NCBI GenBank assembly: GCA_964524845.1
Contig: CAZGFX010000002.1
Coordinates: 157,422-221,421 of the forward strand
DNA length: 64,000 nt
DNA from: an uncultured Gammaproteobacteria bacterium
Lineage (GTDB): Bacteria; Patescibacteriota; Patescibacteriia; CAZGFX01
Reading direction: 5' to 3'
Under the pieces are notes generated by a model. The model saw only the letters and a list, made by a program, of their open reading frames with translations. It made no database searches and was not told where the DNA came from. A program made the translations under genes and the position numbers. Positions within the stretch are counted from its first letter, which is position 1. Every line of letters starts with the position of its first letter. Positions 31,983 through 59,657 of this stretch are shown in pieces.

Positions 31983-32033
31983 ATGGTTAAGATCAGAGGT
32001 CAGACGTCTTATCTTAAGATGTCGAAAGCGTGA
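31983..32033 (+). CDS. micro-ORF MVKIRGQTSYLKMSKA (16 aa), TAAGGAG SD, 8-nt spacer
   Basis: gtAAGGAGcgtgtatcATG; stop TGA at 32031-32033. Confidence 0.25.
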   Translation: MVKIRGQTSYLKMSKA

Positions 32034-32122
32034 AAGCGAAAAGAAAAAGGCCGCTGTTTCTCCTCGTTTATCAGCATGATTTTGCTGAAACCACGGAAAA
32101 AAAACATGGAAGGAGGTTCATT

Positions 32123-32170
32123 ATGAACCGCATCCGTGCCCAAAACAACCTGCATCAAAAAATGATGTAA
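32123..32170 (+). CDS. micro-ORF MNRIRAQNNLHQKMM (15 aa), GGAAGGAGGT SD, 5-nt spacer
   Basis: catgGAAGGAGGttcattATG; stop TAA at 32168-32170. N-terminus M-x-[KR]-I-R-[GA]-Q is shared with the previous micro-ORF. Confidence 0.25.
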   Translation: MNRIRAQNNLHQKMM

Positions 32171-32293
32171 GCGCCAAAAAAGCAAGGTCTCACCCAAGAA
32201 GTACTGGTCACTCCATTTATCGCAACAAATTAAGCGCGGTATAGAAGCGTGCCAAGAAAAACTTGGAAATAAAAACATGAAAGGAGTTTCAAA

Positions 32294-32314
32294 ATGAAAC
32301 GAAATTATGGCTAA
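32294..32314 (+). CDS. micro-ORF MKRNYG (6 aa), AAAGGAG SD, 7-nt spacer
   Basis: catgAAAGGAGtttcaaaATG; the upstream context aaaaacatgRAAGGAG repeats that of the previous micro-ORF. Confidence 0.15.
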   Translation: MKRNYG

Positions 32315-32380
32315 CCCTTCTCACAAAGACAAAAGGTTTTGTCAAAACTCGAGAGCGAGAACGATATAATAATTATAAGA

Positions 32381-32411
32381 CCCCACCCGAAGAGGTGGGG
32401 CATTTTTTATT
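32381..32411 (+). terminator. intrinsic terminator (CCCCACC-cgaaga-GGTGGGG plus CATTTTTTATT)
   Basis: 7-bp all-GC stem at 32381-32400 with U-tract. Confidence 0.75.
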
Positions 32412-32565
32412 GAAAAATAAACAATATTAAAAAATAATTTAAAATAGCATTTTTAAATCGATAAATATTGCACCAAACCCATATTGACAAATACATCATC
32501 AAGTCGAAACAAATTAACAATACTCACACAAACATAAATATTATTCATTCGTTTCTCATTTCAAT

Positions 32566-32592
32566 AAAAAATGCCCCGGTTTTTAACCGAGG
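32566..32592 (-). terminator. terminator downstream of the subtilisin gene
   Basis: Minus strand GCCTCGGTT-aaaa-AACCGGGGC (8/9 bp) followed by ATTTTTTATT. Confidence 0.5.
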
Positions 32593-32611
32593 CAATAATA
32601 GTCTACGCATT

Positions 32612-41750: not shown

Positions 41751-44700
41751 TTATTGGTTTTCTACCATACTTACATCTGTTCCCGTTTCGCTCGTAGGAG
41801 TTGTTTCGCCTGATGATGTTGTGGTCACAGGAGTTGAAACAGGTTGATCAACAATAACTGGAGAAGCTGGGGTTTCCGGAATAGGCTCACTTGTTTCTAT
41901 TATCTCCGCAAGCGAATCTGTTGGTGGTGTTGGATTGTTTATATATATTGGTACGTTTGGATTTATCGTATCGCGATTAATCTGATCTGTACCCACTTCG
42001 AATGCGAGCCATGTCACATCAACAAACTTCGCACAACCAGGTTCAGTCGCGACATCACACACGGGCTCTGACATCTCTATATCAAAACCTTCTTCGGTTT
42101 GATTACTTACCCATACGCGTCCTTTCCACGATCTAGCAGTATCAGGATCTTCAAACTTCGGCGTCAATGAAACAAGAACCTCATTTTTTTTCGGTGCGAC
42201 AAATGCAATATGTTGTGTTATTTGATTATATGAAAATCTAACAGACCCTGCCACATCTTTTGAAACAACCGAGAGACCACCTTTCAATTCAAGATTCTTT
42301 TCAAGTGTTACTGCATCCCGTACGACAAGTGTTCCTTGTATTTCAACATTTCCTTTCACGACAAGATCTTTTTCAAATACCGCTTTTTCTTTCACAACAA
42401 GAGCACCCGTCAAAGACATTATTGCAACATCAATTTGTAAACCATCTCCCAAAGACCATTTATTGTATTGAGGATTAATGTCTTCAACAATATTTTGTAC
42501 GTTAGGATCTGGTGTTTGCTGAACATCGCTTGGATCAATATAGACTCCTTGTATATCTCCTGCGCTAGGCTGTACCTGAACATCATCATCGCCTTCGACT
42601 ACTTCTTCGTCATCAAAAACAAGACTTAAACCATATAATTCATCAGTCGTGGCCATTCCAATCCAATATTGCGGTTGAACAAAAACAATAACTGAATTAG
42701 TACTTGGTTCAATACCCGAACTCCATCCGCTCATCGCCTGTCCGACAACGAATCCAGGACCGGTTGCTTTGATAGCATATCCTGGCATATCAGGAGATGA
42801 AGATAGATAATCACCAGTCACAATATCAGCAGAATGATTTATATCAATCTTCACAGGTACTCGACCGACAAGCACGACAAGTTTTGAAGACTGATCGTCA
42901 GAAGTTGTTTCAAGTGTTGTGTTTGGATGTTCCGTAACAACTCCGATAACACTCTTACCAGATGTACGAGTTGCTTTAACAACCGACTCCGAATCAGACG
43001 GATCAATTGAAACCAAATCTCCTTGTTCTATTGATAAATCACCAACTTGATAATACTTAGCGAGATCAAATACTTGTCTATTAAGTTCATTTAAAGCACC
43101 GACAATTGATGTTGATGTGAATGTCCCATCAAGTTTCGTATTTGTATCATCCGCAAGCGCGATTGGTGATTCTGTGTGTGAATCAGCAAGTCCGTTTCCT
43201 ACATTTACGGTATCAGTCACTACTATATTTTTCGCAGTGAGTGTTCCTGCTCCGTTTGTTGAAATCAGCCCTCCGTCTGATGAGAATGATCCGATGGTAA
43301 GCGTACCACCAGAAATTCCGCTAGTTACAGCTAAATTATTGACCGATAGTGTTCCTAGTCCGTTTGATGTAATAAGACCATTATCAGATGAAAATGAGTT
43401 TGTTTTTATTGTGCCTGTTGTAATATTTCCCAAACCATCTGATTGTATTACTCCTCCGTCAGACGAAATTTTTGGCAATGAAAGCGCAAGCGTTCCGTTC
43501 ATAAGAGGATCGAGAATATTTGTTTTTGTTTTTTGCATCTCTTTGAGAAGCAACACGGATAGAATTTCATAATGAACGGAATCTGGGCGACCCTGATTAT
43601 CGAAAAACACAAGCTGAGGAAGAACTTCCGCTGCTTCTTCCGCAATCAAACCAAATGTCCTATTCTCTGGTAGATCAGGAAGCTCGTTTGGCGTATAACT
43701 TACTGGTCTCAAATCAAATATTTTCGATGTATCAGTTTCTATATCTGTAATACTCTTTTTATATCGTCGTGATGATGTATATTTAAATAATTGATTACTA
43801 CCATTTATATGAATAGCAGTACCTGCCGTACCACTCGAAGGAAGTCCATCAAAAGCAACTGTACTACTAGCATAAAAAGATCCTTCTATTTCTGTATAAC
43901 CCAAAAACGAATCTCCATTAACAAAAAAATCATTATCAGCTTCCAATCTTCCACCATAAAAATAGGCATCCCCATCTGAGGTAATAGAAAATCTGTTCAC
44001 ACTGTTTGTTTCTATATTAAAATCATTTGGGCCTGAGTTGGAATAAACTAAAACATTAGTATCGGAAAAAGCTATCTGTGGATCCTCGCTAGTAAGAAAA
44101 AGACTTCTATTCATATCTATGGAAGATCCGATTGTTATATTACTATCATCCGGGTCACCTAATATTAATTCGCGACCACTATATGAGACTGTAAGTGCCG
44201 TACCAGTCCAAGCACCACCATCACCTGACATAGACATTTTAAACTTACTAATATTAGGTGCAGAAGTATCAATACCCATAGAAACAGTATCATCGCCTGA
44301 TTTAAACATTAAAGTAGCATCCCCGGTACCCATTTGTTCTATTTTCAACATTGGTGTTGTTTCGGTACTGTTTTCATATATATGAAAATTTGCACTTGGT
44401 GCATTTGTGCCTAATCCAAATCTAATACTCGTTCCATTATAACCAGTATATCTAATATAAGAGTCTTCAAAATATCCTAATTTCATCTCTAAAGAATCAT
44501 CGTAAATTCCAGATAAATTTACCGATCCATCGCTAGGCATTACTCTAAAAAAACCATAAGAATTATCAAAAGTTGGCGGGTAAGATCCATCATTAAAACC
44601 TATAACAAAATCGTCATAAGATGTCGAACTATCAATACCCATTACATAATGTCCTGATGAAGACGATGTGTCAGAAACAAATCCAATTGCCGGATCTCCT

Positions 44701-47700
44701 GTACCAGCTTGTTGCAACATAAGCATAGGAGTTGTCTGTGTAGAGTTTTCATACAAGTGAAGATTCGTACTTGGAGTAGCAAAACCAAGTCCTATATTTC
44801 CACTCGAATCAATAACAAACCTATCACTTGTTCCAAGTCCTGTCGTGCTTATTTTAAACTTATCACTATCAGAATCATCTACGCCCATGGTAAATGAATT
44901 CGTTCCTTCAGCAAGTTGAAACCCAATCGCAGTATCATAATCACCTGCATTTGTGTTTACAACAAAAACATTTGTGTTTATAGCAGATGAAGATGCTACA
45001 TCAAGCATTGCATCTGGCGACGTATCACCTATACCCATATATCCATTACTGTTTATACGCATTCTTTCATAAAGATCACCATTAAGTGATGTTTGCAATG
45101 AAAAATAACTGTCTCGTGTCGAAGCGGTATCGTTCCACGCACCCTCAGTCCCAACGATAATTCGCGCCGACCCATCAACTCCTGGATCATCCACGGATCC
45201 TGAAAACCACTGATTAAACAAAACTCCTGTCTGTGTATTAGAAGAAGCTTGTCTTGTGTTCGTTATCTCAATAAAATCTGTAAGACCTCCATCAGTTCCC
45301 GTTTGTTCTATATCAAGAAGTGACGATGGTGGATATAATGGATTAGAAAAAGCTCCTACTCCAACAAGTCCGCCACTTGTTACAGATAAACGACGTGTTC
45401 CTGCTGTCGTGAGATCAATGGTATCTGCTCCAGATGAGTATACACCAGTATTTGTATCTCCAACAAAAGATATTGAAGGATTTCCTACTGCACCCAGAGG
45501 ATGATAAGCGTATCCACTTGAATTAACTTGAAACAAATCCCCACTACCGACTGTGAAGAGTGACGCAGGAGACGAATCTCCTATACCAACATATCCTGCA
45601 TTATCAACACGCATAGCTTCAATCATGCTTCCTGTATTTCTTACATTAAAACGCATCGACGAGACACCAGAATTAACACCCGCACTCTCCCAAACAGTAT
45701 CTATACTTCCGGCTTCAAGTCCCATACCATCATTATCCTCAAGATATGTGACAATTCCAGACCCAAGTCCTGTATTATCCATTGATGGACGAGTTACGTT
45801 CATAGTCAGTGTATCAATCACAGTGGCTGTGGTATTTGCTTTTGACAAATGAAGAATACTAGAAGGAGTATTCGTTCCTATTCCTATATTTCCACTCGAA
45901 TCAATTACAAACCTATCGTTTGTACCAAGCGCTGTTGTAGATATTTTAAACTTATCAGAATCAGAATCATCAATACCCATAGTAAAAGTATTTGTTCCAT
46001 CAGCGAGTTCAAAACCTATTTGAGAATCGTAATTTCCTGCATTCGTATTTGAAATTGTAAACTGAGTATTTGCTGCACCTGATGACATAATTTCAAGAAG
46101 TTGATCTGGTGTTATGTCTCCTACACCAACGTTTCCTCCATAAAGAAGTGTCATAACAGTGTTTGAAAGCGTCTGCCCATTAGTTGTGCCAGAAGAAAAA
46201 GCCAGATCGTTTGTATTCTGTTTGTGTATTGTCCAATCACCATATCCTCCTCCTTGATTATCAAATGTCAACCAGTTATATACACTTGAGTTTGCTTGAT
46301 TACTAGAAATAGTAAACTTACTATAAGATGTTGCCGTAGTACCAACACTTATGTTTCCAGAAGAATTAATCGTCATACGATTTGTTCCTCCTGTAGCAAA
46401 ATCTAGGGCATCTGCTCCTGATGAGTATATACCAGTGTTCGGATCACTGACAAAAGACACCGACGGTGTTCCTACTGCTCCGAGAGGATAAAGCGCATAT
46501 CCACTTGAATTAACCTGAAACAAATCTCCATTTCCGACTGTGAGAAGTGATGCTGGTGTCGCATCACCAATACCAACATTTGCGCTTAATATGTTCACAT
46601 AATCTGTCGCTTGATCATCGAATGCTATTCGTCCGGCAATTGATCCAAGACCCAACCAATCATCGTCTGCATTCGCATCAGAAAAAGCATCACCAGAAGT
46701 CATAGAACCAACAGATGTTACATCACCTGTTCCAGCAGATACCCATGTTAAATTTCCACTTCCATCGTTTCGAAGAACTGTATTTGATGAACCCTGAGAA
46801 CCAGGCCACGAGTATGTTACATTATTAACTTTTACGATGTTTCCGGATGAGTTGACTTGAAACAAATCACCATCTCCAACAGTAAATAAAGACGCTGGCG
46901 TTGCGTCACCAACACCAAGGTTTGCGCTCATTATATTTACATAATCGGTGGCCTGATCATCAAACGCAACTCGTCCAGCACTTGCTCCAAGTCCGAGCCA
47001 ATCATCATCAGCATTCGCATCCATAAAAACATCCCCTCCTGTCATAGAACCGACTGTTGTAATATCTCCTGTTCCTGAACCCGTAACCCATGTGAGTGTT
47101 CCGCTTCCATTATTGCTTAATACAGTACCTGCACCTCCTTGTGCTGACGGCCACGAGTATGTAACATTATTAACTTTTACGAGGTTTCCTGATGAGTTTA
47201 CTTGAAATGTATCTCCGCTACCTACTGTAAGAAGAGATGCTGGTGTCGTCTCTCCAATACCGACGTTCGCACTCAAAATATTTACATAATCGGTAGCCTG
47301 ATCATCAAAAGTAATACGTCCAGCAGCTGCTCCAAGTCCAAGCCAATCATCATCAGCATTCGCATCCATAAAAACATCTCCCGATGTCATAGAACCAACC
47401 GTAGTTATATCACCAGTTCCTGAAACGGTAACCCAGGTAAGATTACCACTTCCATCGTTTCTTAAGTATGTGTTTGATGCTCCCTGAGAAGCTGGCCACG
47501 AATATGAAACATTATTTACTTTTACAAGATTACCGTATGAGTTAACTTGAAATAAGTCTCCGTTTCCAACTGTGAAAAGAGATGTCGGTGAAGAATCTCC
47601 TATACCAATATATCCTTCATAACTAATTCTAAAAGCCTCTGACATTGAGCTGTTATTCATGTGATTAAATATTACAGAGGCTTTTTCTCTTGTTTCACGA

Positions 47701-50700
47701 GGATCCTCCCACACGACATCAATTCCAGCCGCCTGAGACAAACCATCTTGATCGTTTTCCAAATAAAATCCAATGCTGGCACCGAGTCCTTGAGCACCAG
47801 AACTATCATAATTTATTCTCTCTATACGTAACGCCTCCATAATATCAGACGCATCATTCTGAGAAAGAACCGAGAGTGTAGAAGCCGGAGTACTTGTACC
47901 AACACCAAGCCTATTATTTGTATCATCCCAGAATAGATTTGAATTATCTTGAGTGTACACACCACTTCCCCCAGCAAATACAAGTGAGCCCGATGTAAAT
48001 TGAGTACCGGTTCCTGTACCGCCTCTTGTAACATTTAAATATTGTTCTGATGTTAATGAGTTTGTTCCATTCCAATACGCTATATATCCGTTTGTTCCTG
48101 TTCCTGTTGCAACAGTTCCTGATGTTGGAAGCGTAATACTTGTAGCTCCTGATGTTGTAAAAAATAGCGTGTTCCCTGCAGTACCAAGAGGAACAACACC
48201 GGTATTATCTTGAAAAGTTATCGTCTTATCAGATACTGTTGGATCTGTTATAGCAAATGTTGTTTCGTATGTGTTGTCTGTTGCTCCTTCAAAAACCAGA
48301 GGAGAGGCACCTTGAATAACACCTCCGAGAGTCAGTGCATTAGAAGCGTTTCCGATCGATACAGCACCAGTTGATGTCCCTGTGTTTATATTTGTAGTAA
48401 AGTTTGAACTTGCATTTATAGAAGACGTTGCTCCTGACACAGTAAGTCCTCCTGTTCCTTGTATAACTCCTGTTGTTGAGTTAACACCAACAAAAGATGC
48501 TGCACCAGCACCTGAAACAGACCATTGTCCATCTGTAATAACAACATTTGCTGATGCATTTCCTATTGTAACCGTCCCCGTTGATGTACCGGTGTTTATG
48601 TTTGTAGCAAAATTTGAACCATGATTAATATATACAGTGTTTCCTGAAGTTACAAAAGAACCAGTGTTTGTAATACCCCGAACAGAAACTATTGCACCAG
48701 ATGAATTTACTTGAAACAAGTCTCCATTTCCTACAGTAAACAAAGAATCCGGAGATGAATCACCCACACCAACGTTTCCTCCATTAAAAACAGCAGAATA
48801 TGTGTTGTCACGACTATTTGCAGTATCAGTATCAACATATAAACCTGTAATTGTGTTTCTATATCCTCCAAAATCATCGTCTATGTTTATATGCATACCA
48901 TACACGGTGTCCACATAATCCTCGTTTTGTGGATTGTTTGAAATATTTAATTTATATCCATATAGTGTAGCAATATCACTTGGATTCATTGTTACATTAT
49001 GAGAAATACTTGAGGAAGCATCGGTTTGTAGATCTAAAGAGGTCAAACTAAGAACGGGATTTGTTACATCGCTTGACGAAATAGATATTGTATCATCTGT
49101 AATAGATGGCGAAAGGTTTGTTCCTGATCTGGTCCAATATCCCAGCGTTCCTGTTGATGGTGGTGTTGTAGTAAGATACCCTGAAGAATCAGTATATACA
49201 CCACTTTCCGTACCGAGCGAATTAAATAAAATATTTCCTGATGATGCTAAACCAGTGAGACCTGATGCGACACCGGCTGACGACACGTCCCACGATGATG
49301 TGTTTATAGCGAGCGTGTTTGATCCACCACCGATTGATACGGCGCCGGTTGATGTTCCTGTATTTATGTTTGTCGCGAAATTAGAACTTGCGTTCAATGA
49401 TACTGCTCCACCCGAGCTTGTCACTGCTCCAGTGTTTGTAATTCCTTGAACAGATGCTATTGCGCCAGATGAGTTGACTTGAAAAAGATCTCCGTTCCCT
49501 ACTGTGAAAAGAGATGCAGGAGTTGTATCTCCGATACCAATATTTCCTGCAGGAGTGATATTTAAAAATTCGTTCGTTCCTTCTAGAATACGCAAATTAC
49601 CTTCGCTTGACCCATCTGTTTCTTGTATACCGATTTTCCAATCGCGAGCAGTCGTTGTTTCGGCTGCGGTTGAATATACATGAAGCGATGATGGTCCTAA
49701 ATATAAATCTCTCCAACGCAAAGAAGACGATCCGAGATCATAAGAATCATCACTGTTTGGTCCAACTGATCCGGCAACTTGTAATTTAAATGTCGATGGT
49801 GCACTTGTGCCAACACCAACGTTTCCACTACTATTAACATATAAACTATTTACAGATGCGCCATCCTCAATTACAAAAACATTGATACTACCTCCTGTCG
49901 TATCTTGAATTCTAAAATCATCGTTTGCATTCACACCCATTTTCCATTGCCTAGCATCATTAATAAAATCAAAATCAGCAGCTCCATTAAGACCTGTATT
50001 TTCTATTCTTCCTGCAATATAACTTCCGGCCGCTGATCCAGAAACATGCAATCTTTGTTGAGGACTAGCAGTCCCGATCCCAAGCCTATTATTCGTATCA
50101 TCCCAAAAAAGGTTTGTATTATCTTGTGAGTACACTCCGCTTCCTCCAGCAAACACTAGTGATCCTGAAGTAAACTCAGTACCTGTACCGGTACCACCAC
50201 GTCCAACAGAAAGGTATTGTTCTGATGTTAATGAGTTTGTTCCATTCCAATACGCGACGTATCCATTTGTACCAGTTCCTGTTGCCATGGTTCCTGATGT
50301 TGGAAGAGTTATGCTTGTTGCTCCTGATGTTGTAAAAAATAGTGTGTTCCCTGCAGTGCCAAGAGGAACAACACCGGTATTATCTTGAAATGTTATTGTC
50401 TTATCAGATGCAGTGGTATCAGTGATTGAAAATGTAGTCTCATAAGTATCGTCTGTAGCTCCTTCAAACACAAGAGGAGAAGCACCCTGAATAATACCTC
50501 CTAGAGTTAATGCATTAGAAGAGTTTCCAATTGATACAGCTCCTGTTGATGTGCCTGTGTTTATATTTGTCGCAAAATTAGAATTTTCGTTGATAGATGA
50601 CGAGGCACCAGACACAGTAAGTCCTCCTGTTCCTTGTATAAGTCCTGTGGTTGAATTAACACCGACAAACGAAGCTGCACCAGCACCTGAAACAGACCAT

Positions 50701-52025
50701 TGTCCATCTGTAATAGCAACATTTGCTGATGCGTTTCCTATTGTAACGGTACCGGTTGATGTTCCTGTGTTTATATTCGTTGCAAAGTTTGAATTTGCAT
50801 TTAAAGAGATGACCGCACCACTTGCTGTGGTTGTTCCTGTAACAGTAAGGCCGGTTAAGCCTGATGCGACACCGGCTGATGACACATCCCACGATGATGT
50901 ATTTATTGCTAGTGTATTTGAATTTCCACCTATTGATACAGCACCCGTTGATGTTCCTGTATTGATGTTTGTCGCGAAATTAGAACTTGCATTCAGAGAT
51001 GCTATTCCGCCACTGGTTGTAGTTGCTCCCGTAACAGTAAGGCCGGTAAGACCTGATGCGACACCGGCTGACGACACGTCCCACGATGATGTATTTATTG
51101 CTAGTGTATTTGAATTTCCACCGATTGATACGGCGCCGGTTGATGTTCCTGTGTTTATGTTTGTAGCAAAATTAGAACTTGCGTTCAAAGATATTGCTGC
51201 GCCCGAGCTTGTGACTGCTCCAGTGTTTGTAATTCCTGTCATGTATGATGTTCCGTCCACTTCGAGATCATTCTGAATATATAAATCACCAAGTCCATCG
51301 GCGTTGTTTGCTGTACCAGCTGAACCAGTACGGATAAGTCCTCCATCTAGAACCCGAAGAGCGGATGTGCCATTGTCCTGTACATCGAGAATACCTCCTG
51401 TTCCTTGTTGATTGATGACGATCGCTGATCCACTTGATGTATTTACGGTCACAGATGTATTTGCTTGAAATGTGTATGATCCTGTTATTGTTTCGTTTTC
51501 TGATGTGTCTGCAAATTCTTCTTCTGATTTACCATCAAGAGCGTCTGTGTTAAATGCATAAGGAGATGCGGTCATTCTTTTTCTTGGCAAAAAAACTTCT
51601 TCGTACGATCCATTGTTATCAGCATCAAGACGAACCTCGAGATATAAGTTATCAGTATTGAAATCAAGAGAACCAGGAAGAGATGTATGAGTTCCTATAT
51701 CAACTGAGAATATTCCATCAGTAAGTGAAACTTGAGATGTTCCTGAATTCCACGTCTCTGTATAAGCGGCCGATCCTCCTGTGCTAACTGTAAAAAATGC
51801 AAACTGCATATTGTAACTGCTGTTTGCAATATTAATACCATTTGATGCTGTGATCTTGGCTTGATAAGAAAGTTTTTTGTTTATACCTGCGGCACCATAA
51901 ACAATCGGCACCCACGTAAAAAACAAACACGCTAAAACAAGCGCGGTAAGAAGCTTCCTTAAGACTGAAAATCGTATTAAAACAAGCATGGTAATTTTTA
52001 CGAAAACCTTTTCAGTTAGCGCCAA
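41751..52025 (-). CDS. giant (3424 aa) membrane-anchored, repeat-rich fibre-like surface protein with an internal phage tail-fibre S74-type intramolecular-chaperone-like module
   Basis: N-terminal TM/signal; Gly/Ser/Thr/Asn-rich beta-repeats; recurring motif [IV]G[IV]GDxxPxSL[FL]TVGxGDxFQVNSSG (tail-fibre-like NVGIGT..P class); about 64-aa and about 113-aa tandem repeat families; a large block duplicated 2160 nt apart. About 679 aa from the C-terminus lies SSRRYKKSITDIETDTSKIFDLRPVSYTPNEL...GLIAEEAAEVLPQLVFFDNQG...YEILSVLLLKEMQ (pattern of the peptidase-S74 chaperone domain), then a Pro/Thr-rich C-terminus. Confidence 0.85.
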   Translation of the reverse strand: MALTEKVFVKITMLVLIRFSVLRKLLTALVLACLFFTWVPIVYGAAGINKKLSYQAKITASNGINIANSSYNMQFAFFTVSTGGSAAYTETWNSGTSQVSLTDGIFSVDIGTHTSLPGSLDFNTDNLYLEVRLDADNNGSYEEVFLPRKRMTASPYAFNTDALDGKSEEEFADTSENETITGSYTFQANTSVTVNTSSGSAIVINQQGTGGILDVQDNGTSALRVLDGGLIRTGSAGTANNADGLGDLYIQNDLEVDGTSYMTGITNTGAVTSSGAAISLNASSNFATNINTGTSTGAVSIGGNSNTLAINTSSWDVSSAGVASGLTGLTVTGATTTSGGIASLNASSNFATNINTGTSTGAVSIGGNSNTLAINTSSWDVSSAGVASGLTGLTVTGTTTASGAVISLNANSNFATNINTGTSTGTVTIGNASANVAITDGQWSVSGAGAASFVGVNSTTGLIQGTGGLTVSGASSSINENSNFATNINTGTSTGAVSIGNSSNALTLGGIIQGASPLVFEGATDDTYETTFSITDTTASDKTITFQDNTGVVPLGTAGNTLFFTTSGATSITLPTSGTMATGTGTNGYVAYWNGTNSLTSEQYLSVGRGGTGTGTEFTSGSLVFAGGSGVYSQDNTNLFWDDTNNRLGIGTASPQQRLHVSGSAAGSYIAGRIENTGLNGAADFDFINDARQWKMGVNANDDFRIQDTTGGSINVFVIEDGASVNSLYVNSSGNVGVGTSAPSTFKLQVAGSVGPNSDDSYDLGSSSLRWRDLYLGPSSLHVYSTAAETTTARDWKIGIQETDGSSEGNLRILEGTNEFLNITPAGNIGIGDTTPASLFTVGNGDLFQVNSSGAIASVQGITNTGAVTSSGGAVSLNASSNFATNINTGTSTGAVSIGGGSNTLAINTSSWDVSSAGVASGLTGLASSGNILFNSLGTESGVYTDSSGYLTTTPPSTGTLGYWTRSGTNLSPSITDDTISISSSDVTNPVLSLTSLDLQTDASSSISHNVTMNPSDIATLYGYKLNISNNPQNEDYVDTVYGMHINIDDDFGGYRNTITGLYVDTDTANSRDNTYSAVFNGGNVGVGDSSPDSLFTVGNGDLFQVNSSGAIVSVRGITNTGSFVTSGNTVYINHGSNFATNINTGTSTGTVTIGNASANVVITDGQWSVSGAGAASFVGVNSTTGVIQGTGGLTVSGATSSINASSNFTTNINTGTSTGAVSIGNASNALTLGGVIQGASPLVFEGATDNTYETTFAITDPTVSDKTITFQDNTGVVPLGTAGNTLFFTTSGATSITLPTSGTVATGTGTNGYIAYWNGTNSLTSEQYLNVTRGGTGTGTQFTSGSLVFAGGSGVYTQDNSNLFWDDTNNRLGVGTSTPASTLSVLSQNDASDIMEALRIERINYDSSGAQGLGASIGFYLENDQDGLSQAAGIDVVWEDPRETREKASVIFNHMNNSSMSEAFRISYEGYIGIGDSSPTSLFTVGNGDLFQVNSYGNLVKVNNVSYSWPASQGASNTYLRNDGSGNLTWVTVSGTGDITTVGSMTSGDVFMDANADDDWLGLGAAAGRITFDDQATDYVNILSANVGIGETTPASLLTVGSGDTFQVNSSGNLVKVNNVTYSWPSAQGGAGTVLSNNGSGTLTWVTGSGTGDITTVGSMTGGDVFMDANADDDWLGLGASAGRVAFDDQATDYVNIMSANLGVGDATPASLFTVGDGDLFQVNSSGNIVKVNNVTYSWPGSQGSSNTVLRNDGSGNLTWVSAGTGDVTSVGSMTSGDAFSDANADDDWLGLGSIAGRIAFDDQATDYVNILSANVGIGDATPASLLTVGNGDLFQVNSSGYALYPLGAVGTPSVSFVSDPNTGIYSSGADALDFATGGTNRMTINSSGNISVGTTATSYSKFTISSNQANSSVYNWLTFDNQGGGYGDWTIHKQNTNDLAFSSGTTNGQTLSNTVMTLLYGGNVGVGDITPDQLLEIMSSGAANTQFTISNTNAGNYDSQIGFELADGTNTFTMGIDDSDSDKFKISTTALGTNDRFVIDSSGNIGIGTNTPSSILHLSKANTTATVIDTLTMNVTRPSMDNTGLGSGIVTYLEDNDGMGLEAGSIDTVWESAGVNSGVSSMRFNVRNTGSMIEAMRVDNAGYVGIGDSSPASLFTVGSGDLFQVNSSGYAYHPLGAVGNPSISFVGDTNTGVYSSGADTIDLTTAGTRRLSVTSGGLVGVGAFSNPLYPPSSLLDIEQTGTDGGLTDFIEITNTRQASSNTQTGVLFNQWFSGSVDDPGVDGSARIIVGTEGAWNDTASTRDSYFSLQTSLNGDLYERMRINSNGYMGIGDTSPDAMLDVASSSAINTNVFVVNTNAGDYDTAIGFQLAEGTNSFTMGVDDSDSDKFKISTTGLGTSDRFVIDSSGNIGLGFATPSTNLHLYENSTQTTPMLMLQQAGTGDPAIGFVSDTSSSSGHYVMGIDSSTSYDDFVIGFNDGSYPPTFDNSYGFFRVMPSDGSVNLSGIYDDSLEMKLGYFEDSYIRYTGYNGTSIRFGLGTNAPSANFHIYENSTETTPMLKIEQMGTGDATLMFKSGDDTVSMGIDTSAPNISKFKMSMSGDGGAWTGTALTVSYSGRELILGDPDDSNITIGSSIDMNRSLFLTSEDPQIAFSDTNVLVYSNSGPNDFNIETNSVNRFSITSDGDAYFYGGRLEADNDFFVNGDSFLGYTEIEGSFYASSTVAFDGLPSSGTAGTAIHINGSNQLFKYTSSRRYKKSITDIETDTSKIFDLRPVSYTPNELPDLPENRTFGLIAEEAAEVLPQLVFFDNQGRPDSVHYEILSVLLLKEMQKTKTNILDPLMNGTLALSLPKISSDGGVIQSDGLGNITTGTIKTNSFSSDNGLITSNGLGTLSVNNLAVTSGISGGTLTIGSFSSDGGLISTNGAGTLTAKNIVVTDTVNVGNGLADSHTESPIALADDTNTKLDGTFTSTSIVGALNELNRQVFDLAKYYQVGDLSIEQGDLVSIDPSDSESVVKATRTSGKSVIGVVTEHPNTTLETTSDDQSSKLVVLVGRVPVKIDINHSADIVTGDYLSSSPDMPGYAIKATGPGFVVGQAMSGWSSGIEPSTNSVIVFVQPQYWIGMATTDELYGLSLVFDDEEVVEGDDDVQVQPSAGDIQGVYIDPSDVQQTPDPNVQNIVEDINPQYNKWSLGDGLQIDVAIMSLTGALVVKEKAVFEKDLVVKGNVEIQGTLVVRDAVTLEKNLELKGGLSVVSKDVAGSVRFSYNQITQHIAFVAPKKNEVLVSLTPKFEDPDTARSWKGRVWVSNQTEEGFDIEMSEPVCDVATEPGCAKFVDVTWLAFEVGTDQINRDTINPNVPIYINNPTPPTDSLAEIIETSEPIPETPASPVIVDQPVSTPVTTTSSGETTPTSETGTDVSMVENQ
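46480..47560. repeat. three tandem copies of an about 339-nt (113-aa) unit inside the giant gene (VNNVTYSWP..QG...DANADDDWLGLG..AGRIAFDDQATDYVNILSANVGIGDATPASLLTVG)
   Basis: Near-identical DNA blocks starting near 46520, 46861 and 47200. Confidence 0.7.
50540..51290. repeat. intragenic tandem repeats of about 192 nt (64 aa: ASSNFATNINTGTSTGAVSIGGNSNTLAINTSSWDVSSAGVASGLTGLTVTG...) inside the giant gene; further copies near 48380-48620 and 49255-49450
   Basis: Repeated peptide strings visible on both the coding strand and antisense ORFs (50551-51276, 48382-48624, 49255-49449). Confidence 0.7.
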
Positions 52026-52239: not shown

Positions 52240-53628
52240 TTATTTTATATATTCTTTATTAAGGATTTCTCGTGTTTTCGGACCGACATAGCCTGTCACT
52301 GAAATTCCTCTTGCACGCTGGAAATCTGCCACGGCATCTACTGTGACTTTTCCATAAATTGCACTTGGATTTGTGTTTGCTGGAAAAAATCCGATTTTTT
52401 GCAAGAATGTTTGAAGTAAACGAACCTCTTCATCGATAGATCCTTCTGTAAGAAACTTAGTAAACACAATTTTTGAATCAGTAGGAACCGGTTTTTGTTC
52501 AAAATTATCTGAAACAGAAGAACTTGTTGGCATTGAATTCTCGACTAGAATTGTATTTAAATCTGATGTAGTTATTCCTAAACTCAAAAACCTCATTATA
52601 GAATAAGCCGCGCTTCCGTCTTTCATGTAATACCTTTTTTGATCAGCTGGATTTATATACCACGCCTCTCCTCTAGATTCTACTTGAAGCAAAATTCTTC
52701 CGCTCAAACGATTAATTAATTTCGTATCATAAATTAAAGATCCACTTCCTATTGGATTTGTGTTTTTTATCAACGCCTCGTCTCCATCACTTATGCCATC
52801 TCCGTCCGTATCTTTCTGAGTAGGCGATGTTTTCAAAGCCTCCTCTAATTTATCAGATAAGCCATCATTATCCGTGTCAGCGTCTTTAAAACGATTTTCT
52901 GTTCCAATAGGTATCTTTGATAAATCAGAATTTGTAATTCCTAATCCGAAATTACGAAGCGCTTCATAAGCCACTGGACCATCTTTTAAATAAAAACGTT
53001 TTTTTGTAACAGGATACACATACCAAGCCTCACCCTTTGATTCTACTTGAAGAAGTATTTTTCCTGATACTCTATCCAACAAACTCCCACTGGTTATATT
53101 TTTATTAACCGAATTCGTGTCAGAAGAACCACCAACAACTAGCGACGGAAGTCCTTTAATAATGTTTGTTCCTTTTCCGTCGTTTGCTAGAATCGCCCCT
53201 GATATAAACTTCCATTCCGCAAATCCCTTCTTTTTTACAGTAAAATTAACAGTCATCACAAGACCCTTGTCTCCTTTAAATCCGGGATTGAATAAAACAC
53301 CTTCAAATTGAATCGCGTTCGTATTTTTTACAACGGGGGTTGTAAGCCAGAGCTGAACGATTGAATCGTTCGTAATAATCGAATCAACAGTAATATAATC
53401 CGATGAAAAAGACATCTCTCCAGAAACCGCGTTAATTGATTCTGAGTCGGAAGACGTTGTTATTTGTAAGGATCCTTTTTCCCCAATTGAATAATCTGAT
53501 TTGTTTGTTGTAATCGAAAAACTAGCAATTCCAATGGCATGTGTTTCCTTTTCGCACTGAAAAAAAAGTGCGCCTACAATAATTGCGACGAGGATGAAAA
53601 AATTAATTGTATAAAAAAATGTTTTCAT
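52240..53628 (-). CDS. secreted/anchored protein: cohesin-like beta domain, duplicated about 55-aa module, thrombospondin-type-3-like Ca-binding repeats, C-terminal peptidoglycan-binding (PG_binding_1-like) domain
   Basis: Start at MKTFFYTINFFILVAIIVGALF (4-nt ATGA overlap with the upstream gene); DADTDNDGLSDKLEEAL / DTDGDGISDGDEAL; duplicated SG[KR]ILLQVES[KR]GEAWY..P...KR[FY]Y[LM]KDG..AY; C-terminal EEVRLLQTFLQKIGFF...GKVTVDAVADFQRARGISVTGYVGPKTREIL. Confidence 0.6.
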   Translation of the reverse strand: MKTFFYTINFFILVAIIVGALFFQCEKETHAIGIASFSITTNKSDYSIGEKGSLQITTSSDSESINAVSGEMSFSSDYITVDSIITNDSIVQLWLTTPVVKNTNAIQFEGVLFNPGFKGDKGLVMTVNFTVKKKGFAEWKFISGAILANDGKGTNIIKGLPSLVVGGSSDTNSVNKNITSGSLLDRVSGKILLQVESKGEAWYVYPVTKKRFYLKDGPVAYEALRNFGLGITNSDLSKIPIGTENRFKDADTDNDGLSDKLEEALKTSPTQKDTDGDGISDGDEALIKNTNPIGSGSLIYDTKLINRLSGRILLQVESRGEAWYINPADQKRYYMKDGSAAYSIMRFLSLGITTSDLNTILVENSMPTSSSVSDNFEQKPVPTDSKIVFTKFLTEGSIDEEVRLLQTFLQKIGFFPANTNPSAIYGKVTVDAVADFQRARGISVTGYVGPKTREILNKEYIK

Positions 53629-54554
53629 GATGTTTTTTTGAGCTTGTATTTTAGAATCAGTTTTATAAGCAGACCAAGAAGCAGGATTCCACCAACCAAA
53701 TACCATACGTAATATATTATACTTATAGACTCAAATATGTTTCTTGGAGGAATTGTTATAATTCGCGCATTTCCATAATTATCAACTGCTTTTATTAATA
53801 TGGTGCTTCTTAACCGCTGGTCTGATAGAATAAAAGGACTTTCTGCTTTTTTCCAAACAACAGAATTGTAATCTCCATTAAAATTTTGAATCTCTGCTAT
53901 AAAATATTCTTTTATCCCGCTTTCTTTGTCTTGTGTATGAAAAATCAAAGAATTTTTTCCATCAAAAAGATTTTTATCTTGCCCGATTATAGGAGAAAAT
54001 ATTTCTGGTGGCATCTCGTCTTTTTCTAAATTTTTTGTTTTTATGCCATCATTAGAAACAGGTGCGTCAGTTTTTTTTATGCTTATTTGTATTACTGGTT
54101 TTGAAACAGATAATAAACTTCCAAGACCATCGTTTTTGAGAACAACAACATCTTGAAACAGAGCATTCCACACGCCATTATCAACTGCTTTGCATTTCAA
54201 TTTAAAAATATTTCCATTTGATGATGAATAACCTCCCGGAATAACTCCTGAAAAATCAATTATTCCCTTCTCGTCTATGATTGGTTTTTTTATCCACAAA
54301 GAAACAAAAGAGGTTCCTGTGTTTATACTATTACACGATAAAACCGAAGATTGAATTGATAACCTTCCTTCAATGGCGTTTAATGATTCTTTTTCAGTAT
54401 CTATTAAAACATCAATATCTAATACATCCCCTACTTTTTTATCATTATATATTGGCTCTATAAAAATACGTGCAGCATTTGAAAAAGAAGGAAATAAAAA
54501 AATAGAAAGGACTGCAACAAAAAATAATAATTTATATCTATTTATGATACTCAT
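53625..54554 (-). CDS. signal-peptide protein with cohesin-like domain and C-terminal TM anchor
   Basis: 309 aa; MSIINRYKLLFFVAVLSIFLFPSFSNA signal; beta-sandwich-like region VGDVLDIDVLIDTEKESLNAIEGRLSIQSSVL...GNIFKLKCKAVDNG; C-terminal YYVWYLVGGILLLGLLIKLILKYKLKK anchor. Cohesin call is tentative. Confidence 0.45.
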   Translation of the reverse strand: MSIINRYKLLFFVAVLSIFLFPSFSNAARIFIEPIYNDKKVGDVLDIDVLIDTEKESLNAIEGRLSIQSSVLSCNSINTGTSFVSLWIKKPIIDEKGIIDFSGVIPGGYSSSNGNIFKLKCKAVDNGVWNALFQDVVVLKNDGLGSLLSVSKPVIQISIKKTDAPVSNDGIKTKNLEKDEMPPEIFSPIIGQDKNLFDGKNSLIFHTQDKESGIKEYFIAEIQNFNGDYNSVVWKKAESPFILSDQRLRSTILIKAVDNYGNARIITIPPRNIFESISIIYYVWYLVGGILLLGLLIKLILKYKLKKTS

Positions 54555-54557
54555 ATA

Positions 54558-55634
54558 TTATCCTGTCCAATGATAAATCAATATACTAAAATCAACCAAG
54601 GTTATCTTTCCGTCCTTATTTAAATCCATATTATTCGGATATCCGCTTCTACCATACCAATACATCATTATGGAAAAATCAACCAAGTTGATTTTTCCAT
54701 CAGTATTAAAATCAACTCCTTTTACAACCAAAAGAGGCTCTGATTTGATTGTTTTATCACTTACATCAAAAACACTCAAAACACTCTCGTTGCTTTTTCT
54801 ACTATTTTTCATCGCCTGAACAAGAAATGAATATTCTCCCTTTTTTAGGTTTTCGGTACTAATATTGATTACATACGCACCACTCCTACCACTTTTGCTA
54901 TTTATATTTATTTGTTTCTCGCCACCGTTAAGACTTGTTGTTATATCACTATAAGGCATAGTATATCCAGAAACAATTAACGAATCTCCTTGTTTCACTT
55001 CCTTAGAATCTGTATATACTGTTGGGGAAATAAAAATATCATTAAACGAAACCGTTGTTCCTTTTTCTACTTTTACGGGAATTGACACGAATCCTGATCG
55101 AAGCCCAGAAGGATCTGTAACAAATATTGTAAAAGTATATTGACCCGGATTAACATCGTTGATACTAAAATTAAAAACTCCATCACTTCCTATATTAATA
55201 GTTTTGACGGAAACGGAATCTCTCAGTACTGACAAAATGCTATTAGGATATGCGTATCCTGAAAAAAACACATCCGTGGTTGTGATCTGTGAAATAATAG
55301 ATCCTCCTCCACCACCACCGCCTCCTCCACTTCCTCCGCTAGGACAAGAACCACAATCAACGGCACAATTACTACATGTTTCCGTTGGTGTTGTGCATAT
55401 TCCATTACCACAAATAACAGGGTCTGTTTCATCATTATCAAGCGCATCTATACATCCCGGATCTGTTGGAAAATCAATTTTTGTATCACTGTCATTATCA
55501 ATTCCATCACTACACTGTGATGTCGCTGTAATTTCAAGCGTGAATTGAGAAGTTCCTGCACTATATAAAATCATAGGCAGAATAATAAATCCACCGAGAA
55601 TCATTGAGTATATTACTGTTTTTAAAATTTTCAT
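54558..55634 (-). CDS. dockerin (type I)-containing secreted protein with Cys/Asp-rich Ca-binding-like N-terminal module and poly-Gly linker
   Basis: C-terminus DFNTDGKINLVDFSIMMYWY...DLNKDGKITLVDFSILIYHW is two canonical dockerin Ca-binding repeats (D-x-N-x-D-G-K-I-N/T-x-x-D); GGSGGGGGGGGGS linker; N-terminal TM/signal. Confidence 0.7.
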   Translation of the reverse strand: MKILKTVIYSMILGGFIILPMILYSAGTSQFTLEITATSQCSDGIDNDSDTKIDFPTDPGCIDALDNDETDPVICGNGICTTPTETCSNCAVDCGSCPSGGSGGGGGGGGGSIISQITTTDVFFSGYAYPNSILSVLRDSVSVKTINIGSDGVFNFSINDVNPGQYTFTIFVTDPSGLRSGFVSIPVKVEKGTTVSFNDIFISPTVYTDSKEVKQGDSLIVSGYTMPYSDITTSLNGGEKQININSKSGRSGAYVINISTENLKKGEYSFLVQAMKNSRKSNESVLSVFDVSDKTIKSEPLLVVKGVDFNTDGKINLVDFSIMMYWYGRSGYPNNMDLNKDGKITLVDFSILIYHWTG

Positions 55635-59629: not shown

Positions 59630-59657
59630 CTTTTCAGTATGTAAAAAAGTGCAATTT

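What the first reader, a model, noticed from the sequence alone, without database searches (positions are those of the whole stretch)
41751..52025. 3424-aa giant surface protein with tail-fibre-like repeats, internal segmental duplications and an S74-type intramolecular-chaperone-like module placed internally
One gene occupies 10.3 kb (16% of the window). It has an N-terminal membrane anchor, hundreds of Gly/Ser/Thr/Asn beta-repeats and the recurrent [IV]G[IV]GD..P.SLFTVGNGDLFQVNSSG motif typical of phage tail-fibre or bacterial fibre proteins. At least three repeat families are present: 64-aa units near 50.5-51.3 kb, three 113-aa units at 46.5-47.6 kb, and an about 0.8-1.3-kb block duplicated 2160 nt apart at about 47.9 and 50.1 kb, indicating ongoing recombination. 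About 679 aa from the end, ...SSRRYKKSITDIE...FDLRPVSYTPNEL...GLIAEEAAEVLPQLV... matches the auto-cleaving C-terminal chaperone of endosialidase and tail-spike proteins. Yet it is followed by about 590 more residues, which is unusual because such chaperone modules are normally terminal and removed. A host- or prey-attachment fibre is a reasonable guess.
Basis: partly seen in the sequence, partly recalled or inferred. Interest (0 to 1): 0.6.

Follow-up and report, generated by a model that had tools for sequence, protein, structure and literature searches.

The report
Giant fibre protein, two internal autochaperones
A 3424-residue secreted fibre protein of a probable ultra-small (CPR) bacterium carries, well inside its chain, two different phage-type self-folding and self-cutting modules followed by a lectin-like knob; in viruses the second type of module lies at the very end of the protein in every case examined, and the first does so in the one phage gene checked here and in the phage proteins described in the literature.

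Summary
One uninterrupted minus-strand ORF (41751-52025, 3424 aa) has an N-terminal signal-like segment, Gly/Ser/Thr/Asn-rich tail-fibre-like repeats and three repeat families. It has a Pfam-significant Peptidase_S74 module at aa 2751-2806, with Ser2751/Lys2756 in place and 618 residues after it.

The new point is what follows. After a short beta-repeat stalk comes a second autochaperone of another type, the phi29 gp12 D4 / Peptidase_G2 kind (aa 2984-3129). Both a profile-to-PDB match and a predicted-fold match support this. Then come an acidic linker, a short beta-helix, an H-type-lectin-like sandwich and a Pro/Thr-rich tail.

This G2-like module occurs in more than 1600 protein clusters and Pfam mostly misses it. 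In 81 of 81 viral ORFs it is terminal. In cellular giant fibres about 260-290 residues follow it. Its catalytic D-x-A-E motif is kept in about 95-100% of copies but reads D-L-A-K here.

Two independent metagenome assemblies carry a 30%-identical relative with the same S74, G2-like, lectin order, so the architecture is unlikely to be an assembly artefact.

The neighbours are housekeeping and cell-envelope genes, not phage genes. The most likely mechanism is a fold-gated S74 cut at Thr2750|Ser2751. This is inferred, not shown. I rate it a new variant of known kinds, of moderate interest.

The parts
41751..52025 (-). Whole ORF, 3424 aa plus stop. The start is TTG at 52025 or ATG at 51989.
   Evidence: The same 3424-aa protein is in the public library as P0010, from one NCBI contig of 309,728 bp.
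51882..51995 (-). aa 11-48: the only hydrophobic segment, followed by VYG|AAG. Signal peptide or signal anchor.
   Evidence: Kyte-Doolittle scan. Relatives L121 and L112 have the same hydrophobic segment followed by an AAG junction.
51486..51890 (-). aa 46-180: N-terminal domain conserved in related giant fibres.
   Evidence: Read directly from the sequence. Similar N-termini occur in L129, L151, L121 and L112. No Pfam hit.
50466..51233 (-). aa 265-520: units of about 64 aa containing NFATNINTGTSTG.
49797..51080 (-). aa 316-743: first copy of the large duplicated block.
   Evidence: (family D6)
47586..48881 (-). aa 1049-1480: second copy of the large duplicated block. 64% aa identity overall; the 300-nt DNA core is 82% identical.
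46506..47609 (-). aa 1473-1819: three units of 115 aa, 76-82% identical.
44766..46565 (-). aa 1821-2056 and aa 2150-2420: a further duplicated pair (57% identity). Includes the region matching PHROG tail-fibre family 18345 (aa 2182-2453).
43509..43775 (-). aa 2751-2839: S74-type intramolecular chaperone. Pfam core is aa 2751-2806. Candidate scissile bond is Thr2750|Ser2751 (codons 43773-43778). Lys2756 is at 43758-43760.
   Evidence: Ser and Lys are invariant in 17 family copies.
43077..43508 (-). aa 2840-2983: Gly/Ser/Thr beta-repeat stalk between the two chaperone modules. It is also conserved upstream of the G2-like module in some relatives.
   Evidence: Matches start at query residues 32-90. 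Strands are predicted at low confidence.
42639..43076 (-). aa 2984-3129: phi29 gp12 D4 / Peptidase_G2-like autochaperone (beta-tulip type). The motif D2987-L-A-K2990 lies at 43056-43067.
42384..42638 (-). aa 3130-3214: acidic linker, probably disordered.
   Evidence: Sequence reading. pLDDT below 50.
42210..42383 (-). aa 3215-3272: short beta-helix-like repeats (VVKGNVEIQGTLVV...).
   Evidence: aligned to tailspike beta-helix ends. P0002 has a weak Bactofilin hit.
41994..42209 (-). aa 3273-3344: H-type-lectin-like beta-sandwich with a Cys3323-Cys3331 loop.
41754..41993 (-). aa 3345-3424: Pro/Thr/Ser/Glu-rich tail. No hydrophobic segment and no LPXTG.

Best explanation
**What it is (well supported).** A chromosomally encoded, Sec-exported giant fibre protein of a probable CPR/Patescibacteria bacterium, presumably trimeric. 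Roughly its first 2750 residues are built from phage-tail-fibre-like repeats. Its last 674 residues are a composite C-terminal cassette, in this order:
- an S74 intramolecular chaperone with an intact Ser2751/Lys2756 dyad;
- a short beta stalk;
- a phi29-gp12-type (Peptidase_G2-like, beta-tulip) autochaperone whose catalytic Glu is replaced by Lys;
- a linker;
- a beta-helix;
- an H-type-lectin-like knob;
- a Pro/Thr-rich tail.

**How it most likely works (inferred).**
1. After export, the C-terminal knob and the two chaperone modules bring three chains into register. They nucleate folding of the fibre from the C-terminal side, as the same modules do in phage spikes.
2. Once the segment upstream of S74 has folded, the Ser/Lys dyad cuts Thr2750|Ser2751.
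3. This separates a mature fibre of about 2700 residues from the 674-residue cassette.
4. The G2-like module cannot cut here (D-L-A-K). It acts only as a trimerisation and folding module and stays joined to the lectin knob.

Whether the released cassette is discarded or keeps a role of its own is open.
For: **S74**
- Pfam hit above the gathering score over the full profile.
- Ser and Lys at +5 align with T5 pb1 Ser1264/Lys1269 (mechanism in PMC4690869). They correspond to MYRF S578/K583 (PMC3742443).
- Both are invariant in 17 S74 copies from related fibres.
- An S74 module placed internally does cut in MYRF (PMC3742443).

**G2-like module**
- A profile of 30 relatives hits phi29 gp12 at residues 688-745 (E 1.2e-4).
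- The released gp12 fragment 3gqh begins exactly at the aligned DFAE.
- The entry titled 'pre-mature' gp12, 3suc, carries DFAQ at that position.
- The AF2 model has pLDDT above 90 over aa 2984-3124. Its best PDB fold match is 3gqh (E 1.7e-4, TM 0.54), followed by beta-tulip decoration proteins.
- gp12 D4 is described as a tandem beta-tulip autochaperone (bioRxiv 10.1101/216911).
- Pfam Peptidase_G2 hits relatives weakly.

**Catalytic motif**
- D-x-[AGS]-E is kept in about 190 of 201 copies among 150 representatives.
- It is kept in 27 of 27 metagenome copies and 81 of 81 viral copies.
- Only this protein has DLAK.
- This conservation in internal copies argues that cutting is selected for in the family.

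**Architecture is real**
- L107 and L106 come from two separate assemblies. L107 carries S74, then G2-like, then H-lectin, then an acidic tail in one ORF. L106 holds the identical S74 region before running off the end of its locus.
- The L107 span is 29.6% identical to the giant's across the S74-to-G2 region.
- Pfam confirms both modules in L107.

**Cellular context**
- Neighbours are IleRS, RecO, Tgt-like, MetRS and GlyRS-like genes plus wall-binding proteins.
- IleRS is closest to Moraniibacteriota MAGs.
Against: - No experiment or trimer model shows cleavage.
- AF2 gave pLDDT below 50 for the S74 segment, so the trimeric chaperone fold is not confirmed structurally.
- If the lectin-like knob is the functional tip, cutting at S74 would detach it from the fibre.
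- The conserved end domains and long Pro/Thr tails in relatives look like more than disposable folding aids.
- phi29 needs ATP to release its G2 domain (from my memory of Xiang et al. 2009, not read here). ATP would not be available outside the cell.
- The Glu-to-Lys change is a single transition, AAG versus GAG. It could be a strain variant or a base-call error.
- The CPR assignment rests on only 45-48% IleRS identity.
Confidence: 0.5

Rival explanations
1. The fibre is not cleaved. Both chaperone-type modules serve only as built-in trimerisation nodes. The protein stays in one piece, anchored or docked by its N-terminus, and the H-type-lectin-like knob at the far end acts as the sugar-binding adhesin tip for host or prey attachment.
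For: - The end region resembles receptor-binding ends of tailspikes and of the R1 pyocin fibre. It also resembles H-type lectins (TM about 0.63) (profile hits).
- The end cassette is conserved in many relatives: 67 of 150 have the end sandwich.
- The G2 catalytic Glu is lost here.
- P0022 strings S74-S74-G2-G2 in one chain. That layout is awkward if every module cuts and dissociates.
Against: - Ser/Lys is invariant in all 17 related S74 copies.
- D-x-A-E is kept in about 95-100% of G2-like copies even when they are internal.
- Such conservation is hard to explain without catalysis.
- The internal S74 of MYRF does cut (PMC3742443).
Confidence: 0.25
2. Self-processing polyprotein with two products. 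The S74 cut yields a long fibre and, separately, a 674-residue trimeric mini-fibre (S74 base, stalk, inactive G2 module, lectin head). The mini-fibre has its own function, for example as a secreted or wall-bound lectin.
For: - After the S74 module the cassette contains, in order, a stalk, a trimerisation module, a beta-helix and a knob. I read this as a complete small fibre.
- Loss of the G2 Glu would keep the lectin head attached to the mini-fibre.
- In MYRF both cleavage products persist (PMC3742443).
Against: - There is no evidence that the cassette is stable or functional on its own.
- The relative L107 keeps an intact DYAE, so the switched-off G2 module is not a family feature.
- The Glu-to-Lys change may be a single-base variant.
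Confidence: 0.15
3. Artefact or phage gene. Either the ORF is a chimeric join or repeat mis-assembly of a fibre gene ending in S74 with a second gene, or it is a prophage or tailocin tail-fibre gene rather than a cellular surface protein.
For: - The sequence probably comes from a metagenome-assembled genome. The protein is known from one contig only.
- Fibre and S74 homologues are annotated as phage tail fibres.
- No orthologue was found in 185,579 species-representative genomes with the C-terminal query.
Against: - The frame is continuous and the longest exact repeat is 44 nt.
- The same S74-then-G2 order occurs in one ORF in L107, and L106 from a second assembly holds the identical S74 region.
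- The flanks are housekeeping and envelope genes, with no phage genes.
- The protein has a signal sequence.
- The post-S74 cassette has no tblastn match in 50,697 phage records.
Confidence: 0.05

Closest known systems
C-terminal intramolecular chaperone domain of phage K1F endosialidase and T5 L-shaped tail fibre pb1 (Pfam Peptidase_S74, PF13884)
   Same: - Significant Pfam match.
- Ser with Lys at +5, aligned to pb1 Ser1264/Lys1269.
- Preceded by tail-fibre-like sequence.
- A Streptomyces phage minor tail protein aligns up to 14 residues from its own end.
   Different: - In phages the module ends the protein and is discarded. Here about 585-618 residues follow.
- The protein is cellular and carries a signal sequence.
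- The fold is not confirmed (pLDDT below 50).
MYRF / MrfA ICA domain (eukaryotic membrane-bound transcription factors)
   Same: An S74-type module lies inside the chain, and cutting separates an N-terminal part from a C-terminal part (PMC3742443).
   Different: - MYRF has a transmembrane helix after the module. Here no hydrophobic segment exists after aa 48. Only 1 of 128 relatives has one after the G2-like module.
- The cut would occur outside the cell, not in the cytoplasm.
phi29 gp12 pre-neck appendage, D4 autochaperone (MEROPS G2, Pfam Peptidase_G2 PF11962; PDB 3gqh, 3suc, 6qz9)
   Same: - Profile match across the cleavage motif and the first half of D4.
- It is the best fold match.
- Position of the motif at the start of the module.
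   Different: - No Pfam hit for this protein.
- Motif is D-L-A-K instead of D-x-A-E.
- 295 residues follow the module, whereas it is terminal in gp12 and in 81 of 81 viral ORFs.
H-type lectins (Helix pomatia agglutinin, discoidin II C-domain), and the distal ends of the R1 pyocin fibre and of phage tailspikes
   Same: - Sequence-profile hits to five H-type lectin chains (E about 0.01).
- Fold similarity TM about 0.63.
- Position at the distal end after a beta-helix.
   Different: - Below the Pfam threshold.
- The model is only moderately confident (mean pLDDT 67).
- Sugar-binding residues not examined.
- Followed by an 80-residue Pro/Thr tail.
Bacterial 'tail fiber domain-containing proteins' with serial chaperone modules, for example MEI6749474.1 (P0022, Bacteroidota MAG)
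   Same: Several S74 and G2-like modules inside one cellular protein.
   Different: - P0022 has two of each with intact motifs, followed by an Ig-like end domain.
- It shares no close sequence relationship outside the modules.

Membership tests
Peptidase_S74 intramolecular chaperone | Match to Pfam PF13884 at or above the gathering score | tested here: met
   32.3 bits against 22, profile positions 1-57 of 58, aa 2751-2806.
Peptidase_S74 intramolecular chaperone | Catalytic Ser with Lys five residues downstream | tested here: met
   Ser2751 and Lys2756. They align to T5 pb1 S1264/K1269 and are invariant in 17 family copies. Codons were read.
Peptidase_S74 intramolecular chaperone | Module is the C-terminal end of the protein | tested here: not met
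   618 residues follow the Pfam match. The phage homologue ends 14 residues after the aligned region.
Peptidase_S74 intramolecular chaperone | Trimeric helical and beta-hairpin chaperone fold | tested here: inconclusive
   The AF2 monomer model has pLDDT 36-46 over the module. Only a short helix at aa 2823-2832 was predicted.
Peptidase_S74 intramolecular chaperone | Autoproteolysis after folding | not testable with these tools
   Needs expression of wild type against S2751A or K2756A.
Peptidase_G2 / phi29 gp12 D4 autochaperone | Match to Pfam PF11962 at or above the gathering score | tested here: not met
   No hit for this protein even at E<=10. Relatives score 18.2 and 23.2 bits against a gathering score of 25. 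P0215 carries a precomputed PF11962 annotation.
Peptidase_G2 / phi29 gp12 D4 autochaperone | Sequence homology to gp12 D4, including the cleavage motif | tested here: met
   Profile A1 against the PDB: 6qz9_A residues 688-745 at E 1.2e-4, and 3gqh_A from its residue 1.
Peptidase_G2 / phi29 gp12 D4 autochaperone | D4-like (beta-tulip) fold | tested here: met
   Model pLDDT above 90 over aa 2984-3124. The top Foldseek PDB hit is 3gqh_A (E 1.7e-4, probability 1.00, TM 0.54).
Peptidase_G2 / phi29 gp12 D4 autochaperone | Catalytic Asp-x-x-Glu at the start of the module | tested here: not met
   D2987-L-A-K2990. It is the only DLAK among the roughly 200 copies with residues at the motif. 27 of 27 and 81 of 81 other copies keep the Glu.
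Peptidase_G2 / phi29 gp12 D4 autochaperone | Module is the C-terminal end of the protein | tested here: not met
   295 residues follow it. In viral ORFs the median is 3 residues after the module.
H-type lectin domain | Match to Pfam PF09458 at or above the gathering score | tested here: not met
   No hit for this protein. Relative P0013 scores 23.6 bits against 24. 2 of 28 relatives hit at E<=1e-3.
H-type lectin domain | H-type lectin beta-sandwich fold | tested here: met
   4q56, 2ccv and 3wmp at TM 0.63-0.64, probability 1.00. The five best profile-to-PDB hits are all H-type lectins, E 0.011-0.021. Model confidence is only moderate.
H-type lectin domain | Conserved GalNAc-binding residues and sugar binding | not tested
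   Residue-level comparison is not justified at this model quality.
MYRF-type membrane-tethered self-cleaving protein | Transmembrane segment downstream of the S74 module | tested here: not met
   No hydrophobic 19-mer scoring above 1.6 after aa 48.
Phage or tailocin tail fibre (virion component) | Located among phage structural genes | tested here: not met
   Neighbours are aminoacyl-tRNA ligases, RecO, a Tgt-like gene and PG-binding, dockerin and WxLIP surface proteins.

The most novel reading that the evidence does not exclude
Cellular (CPR-type) giant fibres as a class have turned the disposable, strictly terminal autochaperones of phage spikes into internal, fold-gated processing nodes that work outside the cell. 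In this protein the S74 node would split one gene product into a fibre of about 2750 residues and a separate lectin-tipped mini-fibre. The mini-fibre's own G2-type protease has been switched off (Glu to Lys), so it keeps its head. One gene would then give two trimeric surface machines.
Probability: 0.2. Interest if true: 0.7.

Novelty: new variant of a known kind. Interest (0 to 1): 0.5.

Why it matters
- **Assembly without helpers.** If the mechanism is right, it shows how ultra-small bacteria with very small genomes could assemble fibres several thousand residues long outside the cell, without ATP or separate chaperones. They would borrow two unrelated phage self-folding and self-cutting modules.
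- **Viral versus cellular layout.** The G2-like module is terminal in 81 of 81 viral ORFs. It is internal, with about 260-290 trailing residues, in cellular relatives. This gives a simple sequence rule for separating phage spikes from cellular fibres in metagenomes.
- **An annotation gap.** More than 1600 clusters (at 50% identity) contain this G2-like module. Pfam PF11962 detected it in only 1 of the 28 representatives scanned and 1 of the 120 word-index hits listed.
- **A direct experiment.** The single Glu-to-Lys change in an otherwise conserved catalytic motif can be tested by reversion.

Tried and rejected
- **NCBIfam:** no hit for the whole protein.
- **Single-sequence PDB search:** nothing for the whole protein. 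Only sub-threshold hits for the S74 segment, including T5 pb1 and the S16 fibre.
- **Word-index homologue searches:** with the 725-aa C-terminus, only 9 weak hits. With the S74 segment alone, none.
- **Exact look-up of the protein's contig:** not on record.
- **Related-locus scans with the C-terminal 725 aa:** nothing in species-representative genomes or in metagenomes. No close orthologue is known.
- **Synteny:** the nearest genomes by IleRS (Moraniibacteriota MAGs, 45-48% identity) have no such gene next to IleRS.
- **tblastn of the post-S74 cassette against 50,697 phage records:** no match.
- **AF2 of aa 2735-3385:** only the G2-like module came out confident.
- **Readings rejected:**
  - Prophage or tailocin fibre, because of the gene context.
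  - A MYRF-like C-terminal membrane tether or a sortase anchor, because there is no hydrophobic segment and no LPXTG.
  - Recent repeat recombination or assembly collapse, because the longest exact repeat is 44 nt.
Full report
**1. The observation**

- The window holds one uninterrupted minus-strand ORF, 41751-52025, of 3424 codons. It starts at TTG. An in-frame ATG 12 codons further in (51989) is an equally plausible start.
- The only hydrophobic segment of the whole protein lies at about aa 11-48 and is followed by VYG|AAG. This reads as a Sec signal peptide or signal anchor.
- Ser, Gly, Thr and Asn make up 44% of the residues.
- The motif G[IV]G[DE]..P.SL[FL]TVG.GD.FQVNS is present seven times almost unchanged and eight more times in degenerate form.
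  - 192-nt units at 50.7-51.2 kb;
  - 345-nt units x3.1 at 46.5-47.6 kb;
  - a block duplicated 2175 nt apart. Its 300-nt DNA core (47887-48186 versus 50062-50361) is 82% identical. At protein level it spans aa 316-743 versus 1049-1480.
- A fourth duplication covers aa 1821-2056 versus 2150-2420.
- Copies are only 57-90% identical and the longest exact repeat in the gene is 44 nt. The duplications are therefore old, and collapse or expansion of repeats during assembly is unlikely.

**2. The S74 module**

- Pfam Peptidase_S74 matches aa 2751-2806 over the full profile, at 32.3 bits against a gathering score of 22.
- The sequence T-S-S-R-R-Y-K-K aligns with T-S-G-I-E-Y-K-K of the T5 L-shaped tail fibre. 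There Ser1264 is the scissile and nucleophilic residue and Lys1269 activates it (PMC4690869). The same pair is S578/K583 in MYRF (PMC3742443).
- In an alignment with 16 S74 copies from related fibres, this Ser and Lys are invariant.
- PHROG tail-fibre families match aa 2182-2453 and aa 2631-2837.
- tblastn of aa 2150-2840 finds 254 phage records at 25-34% identity, and the rows listed are annotated as tail fibre, minor tail, tail or virion structural proteins.
- In Streptomyces phage Animus the aligned region stops 14 residues before the end of the phage protein. The giant protein continues for about 585 more residues.

**3. What follows S74**

- An exhaustive phmmer search with aa 2830-3424 found 1686 cluster representatives at E<=1e-3. 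What they share is a core of about 146 residues, aa 2984-3129 in the giant protein.
- The core's signature is [GA]-x-D-[LIV]-A-E-x-[YF] ... GDVVSID ... iGvvSt.PG ... vALaGRVPVKV ... GDyLtsS..pG.AMKAt.
- From memory I suspected the phi29 gp12 autochaperone, and I tested this in two ways.
  - **Sequence.** A profile of 30 members hits phi29 pre-neck appendage protein at residues 688-745 (E 1.2e-4). The deposited C-terminal fragment 3gqh starts exactly at the aligned D-F-A-E. The entry titled 'pre-mature' gp12, 3suc, carries D-F-A-Q there.
  - **Fold.** The AF2 model is confident only in this module (pLDDT above 90 over aa 2984-3124). Its best PDB match is 3gqh (E 1.7e-4, TM 0.54). Next come phage decoration proteins of the beta-tulip type. 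gp12 D4 is described as tandem beta-tulips acting as an autochaperone (bioRxiv 10.1101/216911).
- Pfam Peptidase_G2 does not detect the giant protein. It touches relatives just under threshold.
- So the second module is a divergent member of the gp12 D4 kind.

**4. The end of the protein**

- After an acidic linker come short beta-helix-like repeats and a sandwich of about 70 residues. Iterated local HMM searches find this sandwich in 67 of the 150 relatives.
- A profile of the sandwich gives five best PDB hits, all H-type lectins (discoidin-2, Helix agglutinins), at E 0.011-0.021.
- Two of 28 relatives hit Pfam H_lectin.
- A moderately confident AF2 model (mean pLDDT 67) matches tailspike ends (LKA1 gp49, Sf6, Pam1), H-type lectins at TM about 0.63, and the R1 pyocin fibre end.
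- The last 80 residues are 63% Pro/Thr/Ser/Glu. They hold no hydrophobic segment and no LPXTG.

**5. The catalytic motif of the second module**

- In 150 representatives with 224 copies, D-x-[AGS]-E is present in about 190 of the 201 copies that have residues at these positions. The giant protein's D-L-A-K is unique.
- All 27 copies in metagenome relatives keep the Glu, as do all 81 copies in viral contigs.
- The Lys codon is AAG, one transition from GAG.
- The 'pre-mature' phi29 structure carries Gln at this position. As I recall, E695Q blocks cleavage, but I could not read the paper. On that basis the giant protein's G2-like module is most likely unable to cut.

**6. Comparison with relatives**

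- A metagenome scan with the fibre motif returned 79 loci, many from groundwater and from 0.1-um size fractions.
- Of 46 non-redundant motif-bearing ORFs with a closed 3' end:
  - 17 have the G2-like module only, with 177-543 residues after it;
  - 11 have S74 only, with 67-439 residues after it;
  - 1 has both;
  - 17 have neither.
- The ORF with both is L107 (2759 aa). It has S74 (SDLRIK), then after about 250 residues a G2-like module with intact DYAE, then the H-lectin-like sandwich, then an acidic tail.
- Pfam confirms S74 (26.9 bits) and Peptidase_G2 (23.2 bits, gathering score 25) in L107.
- L106, from a different assembly, has the identical S74 region.
- The giant protein's aa 2749-3161 aligns with L107 2191-2610 at 29.6% identity. 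The S74-then-G2 order is therefore conserved across deep divergence and is unlikely to be an assembly chimera.
- L154 has the reverse order.
- P0022 (MEI6749474.1, Bacteroidota MAG) has S74-S74-G2-G2-Ig.
- In L117, L101 and L151, S74 is followed by a coiled coil and the same end sandwich.
- By contrast, in 81 of 81 IMG/VR viral ORFs the G2-like module ends the protein. The median is 3 residues after it and the maximum 141. None has the end sandwich.
- Internal placement is therefore the rule in cellular giant fibres and the exception, if it occurs at all, in viruses.

**7. Context**

- The flanks encode IleRS, RecO, a Tgt-like enzyme, MetRS, GlyRS-like and TatD-like proteins.
- Upstream lies a run of envelope proteins: PG_binding_1 with TSP3, dockerin with Ig, WxLIP_PGBD with LysM.
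- There are no phage genes, no tRNA genes and no Rfam hits.
- IleRS is closest (45-48%) to Candidatus Moraniibacteriota MAGs. Window GC is about 36%. A CPR/Patescibacteria origin is likely but not proven.
- The protein is known from one NCBI contig of 309,728 bp.

**8. Mechanism**

- *Shown.* The two modules, their order, the state of their catalytic residues, the end domain, the export signal, and the distribution among relatives.
- *Inferred.* After export, the end knob and the chaperone modules register three chains and nucleate folding toward the N-terminus. The S74 dyad then cuts Thr2750|Ser2751, separating a fibre of about 2700 residues from the 674-residue cassette. The G2-like module acts only in folding.
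- *For cutting.* The invariance of Ser/Lys, the near-invariance of D-x-A-E in internal copies, and the MYRF precedent for an internal S74 that cuts.
- *Against.* There is no structural confirmation of the S74 fold, and the end of the protein looks functional as a lectin and tailspike-like tip.
- *Probabilities.*
  - Cut with a mainly assembly role for the cassette: about 0.5.
  - Uncleaved fibre with a lectin tip: 0.25.
  - Two functional products: 0.15.
  - Artefact or phage gene: 0.05.

**9. Novelty and verdict**

- Each module type is known, and bacterial 'tail fiber domain-containing proteins' with S74 are common in databases.
- I did not find the following described in the papers searched:
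  - a tandem of the two unrelated autochaperone types inside one cellular giant fibre, capped by an H-type-lectin-like domain;
  - the clean viral-terminal versus cellular-internal split;
  - the size of the G2-like family that Pfam misses;
  - the single-residue loss of the catalytic Glu here.
- I rate this a new variant of known kinds, with interest 0.5.

Noticed in passing
window 55652-59665 (-), 61340-62488 (-), 62525-63229 (-): The 1337-aa protein contains a tandem duplication (aa 72-607 versus 614-1151, 81.9% identical). Its last ~180 residues are 43% identical to the 234-aa ORF at 62525-63229. Between them lies a WxLIP_PGBD + LysM protein. Together with the PG_binding_1/TSP3 (52240-53706) and dockerin/Ig (54558-55634) proteins, this forms a cell-surface gene cluster directly upstream of the giant gene.
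   Followed up: partly
window 31042-32611: A 1.57-kb stretch with no ORF of 90 aa or more, no tRNA and no Rfam match even at E<=0.1. It lies between a GlyRS-like gene and an S8 subtilase gene and is unexplained.
   Followed up: partly
window 32612-34096 (-): A Peptidase_S8 subtilase with a FlgD_ig domain and a weak Por_Secre_tail (type IX secretion sorting domain) match at its C-terminus. This is odd for a genome whose IleRS is closest to CPR bacteria.
   Followed up: no
L108, L117, L123, L150, L084 (5' ends of the giant ORFs): Several metagenome relatives of the fibre begin with cytoplasmic-type N-termini that look like HTH/MerR or integrase-SAM domains, instead of a signal peptide. One of 28 representatives hits Pfam MerR/HTH_17. 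These may be DNA-binding domains fused to giant extracellular fibres.
   Followed up: no
L160-L239 (IMG/VR viral contigs) versus L081-L159 (metagenome contigs): The G2-like autochaperone is strictly C-terminal in 81 of 81 viral ORFs (median 3 residues after it), and all 81 keep D-x-A-E. Cellular fibre relatives carry 177-543 further residues. Pfam PF11962 misses most of this family of more than 1600 clusters.
   Followed up: yes
P0022 (MEI6749474.1, Bacteroidota MAG, partial): One protein fragment strings two S74 modules (SDSRLK at 162, SDERLK at 337) and two G2-like modules (DLAE at 713 and 950) before an Ig-like end domain. This is a case of four serial autochaperone-type modules.
   Followed up: partly
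window 43056-43058 (-): The Lys that replaces the conserved catalytic Glu of the G2-like module is encoded by AAG, one transition away from GAG. It needs checking at read level before weight is put on it.
   Followed up: partly
window 50551-51276 (+): A 241-aa ORF lies antisense to the giant gene within its 64-aa repeat region. It is most likely a by-product of the repeat composition, not a gene.
   Followed up: no
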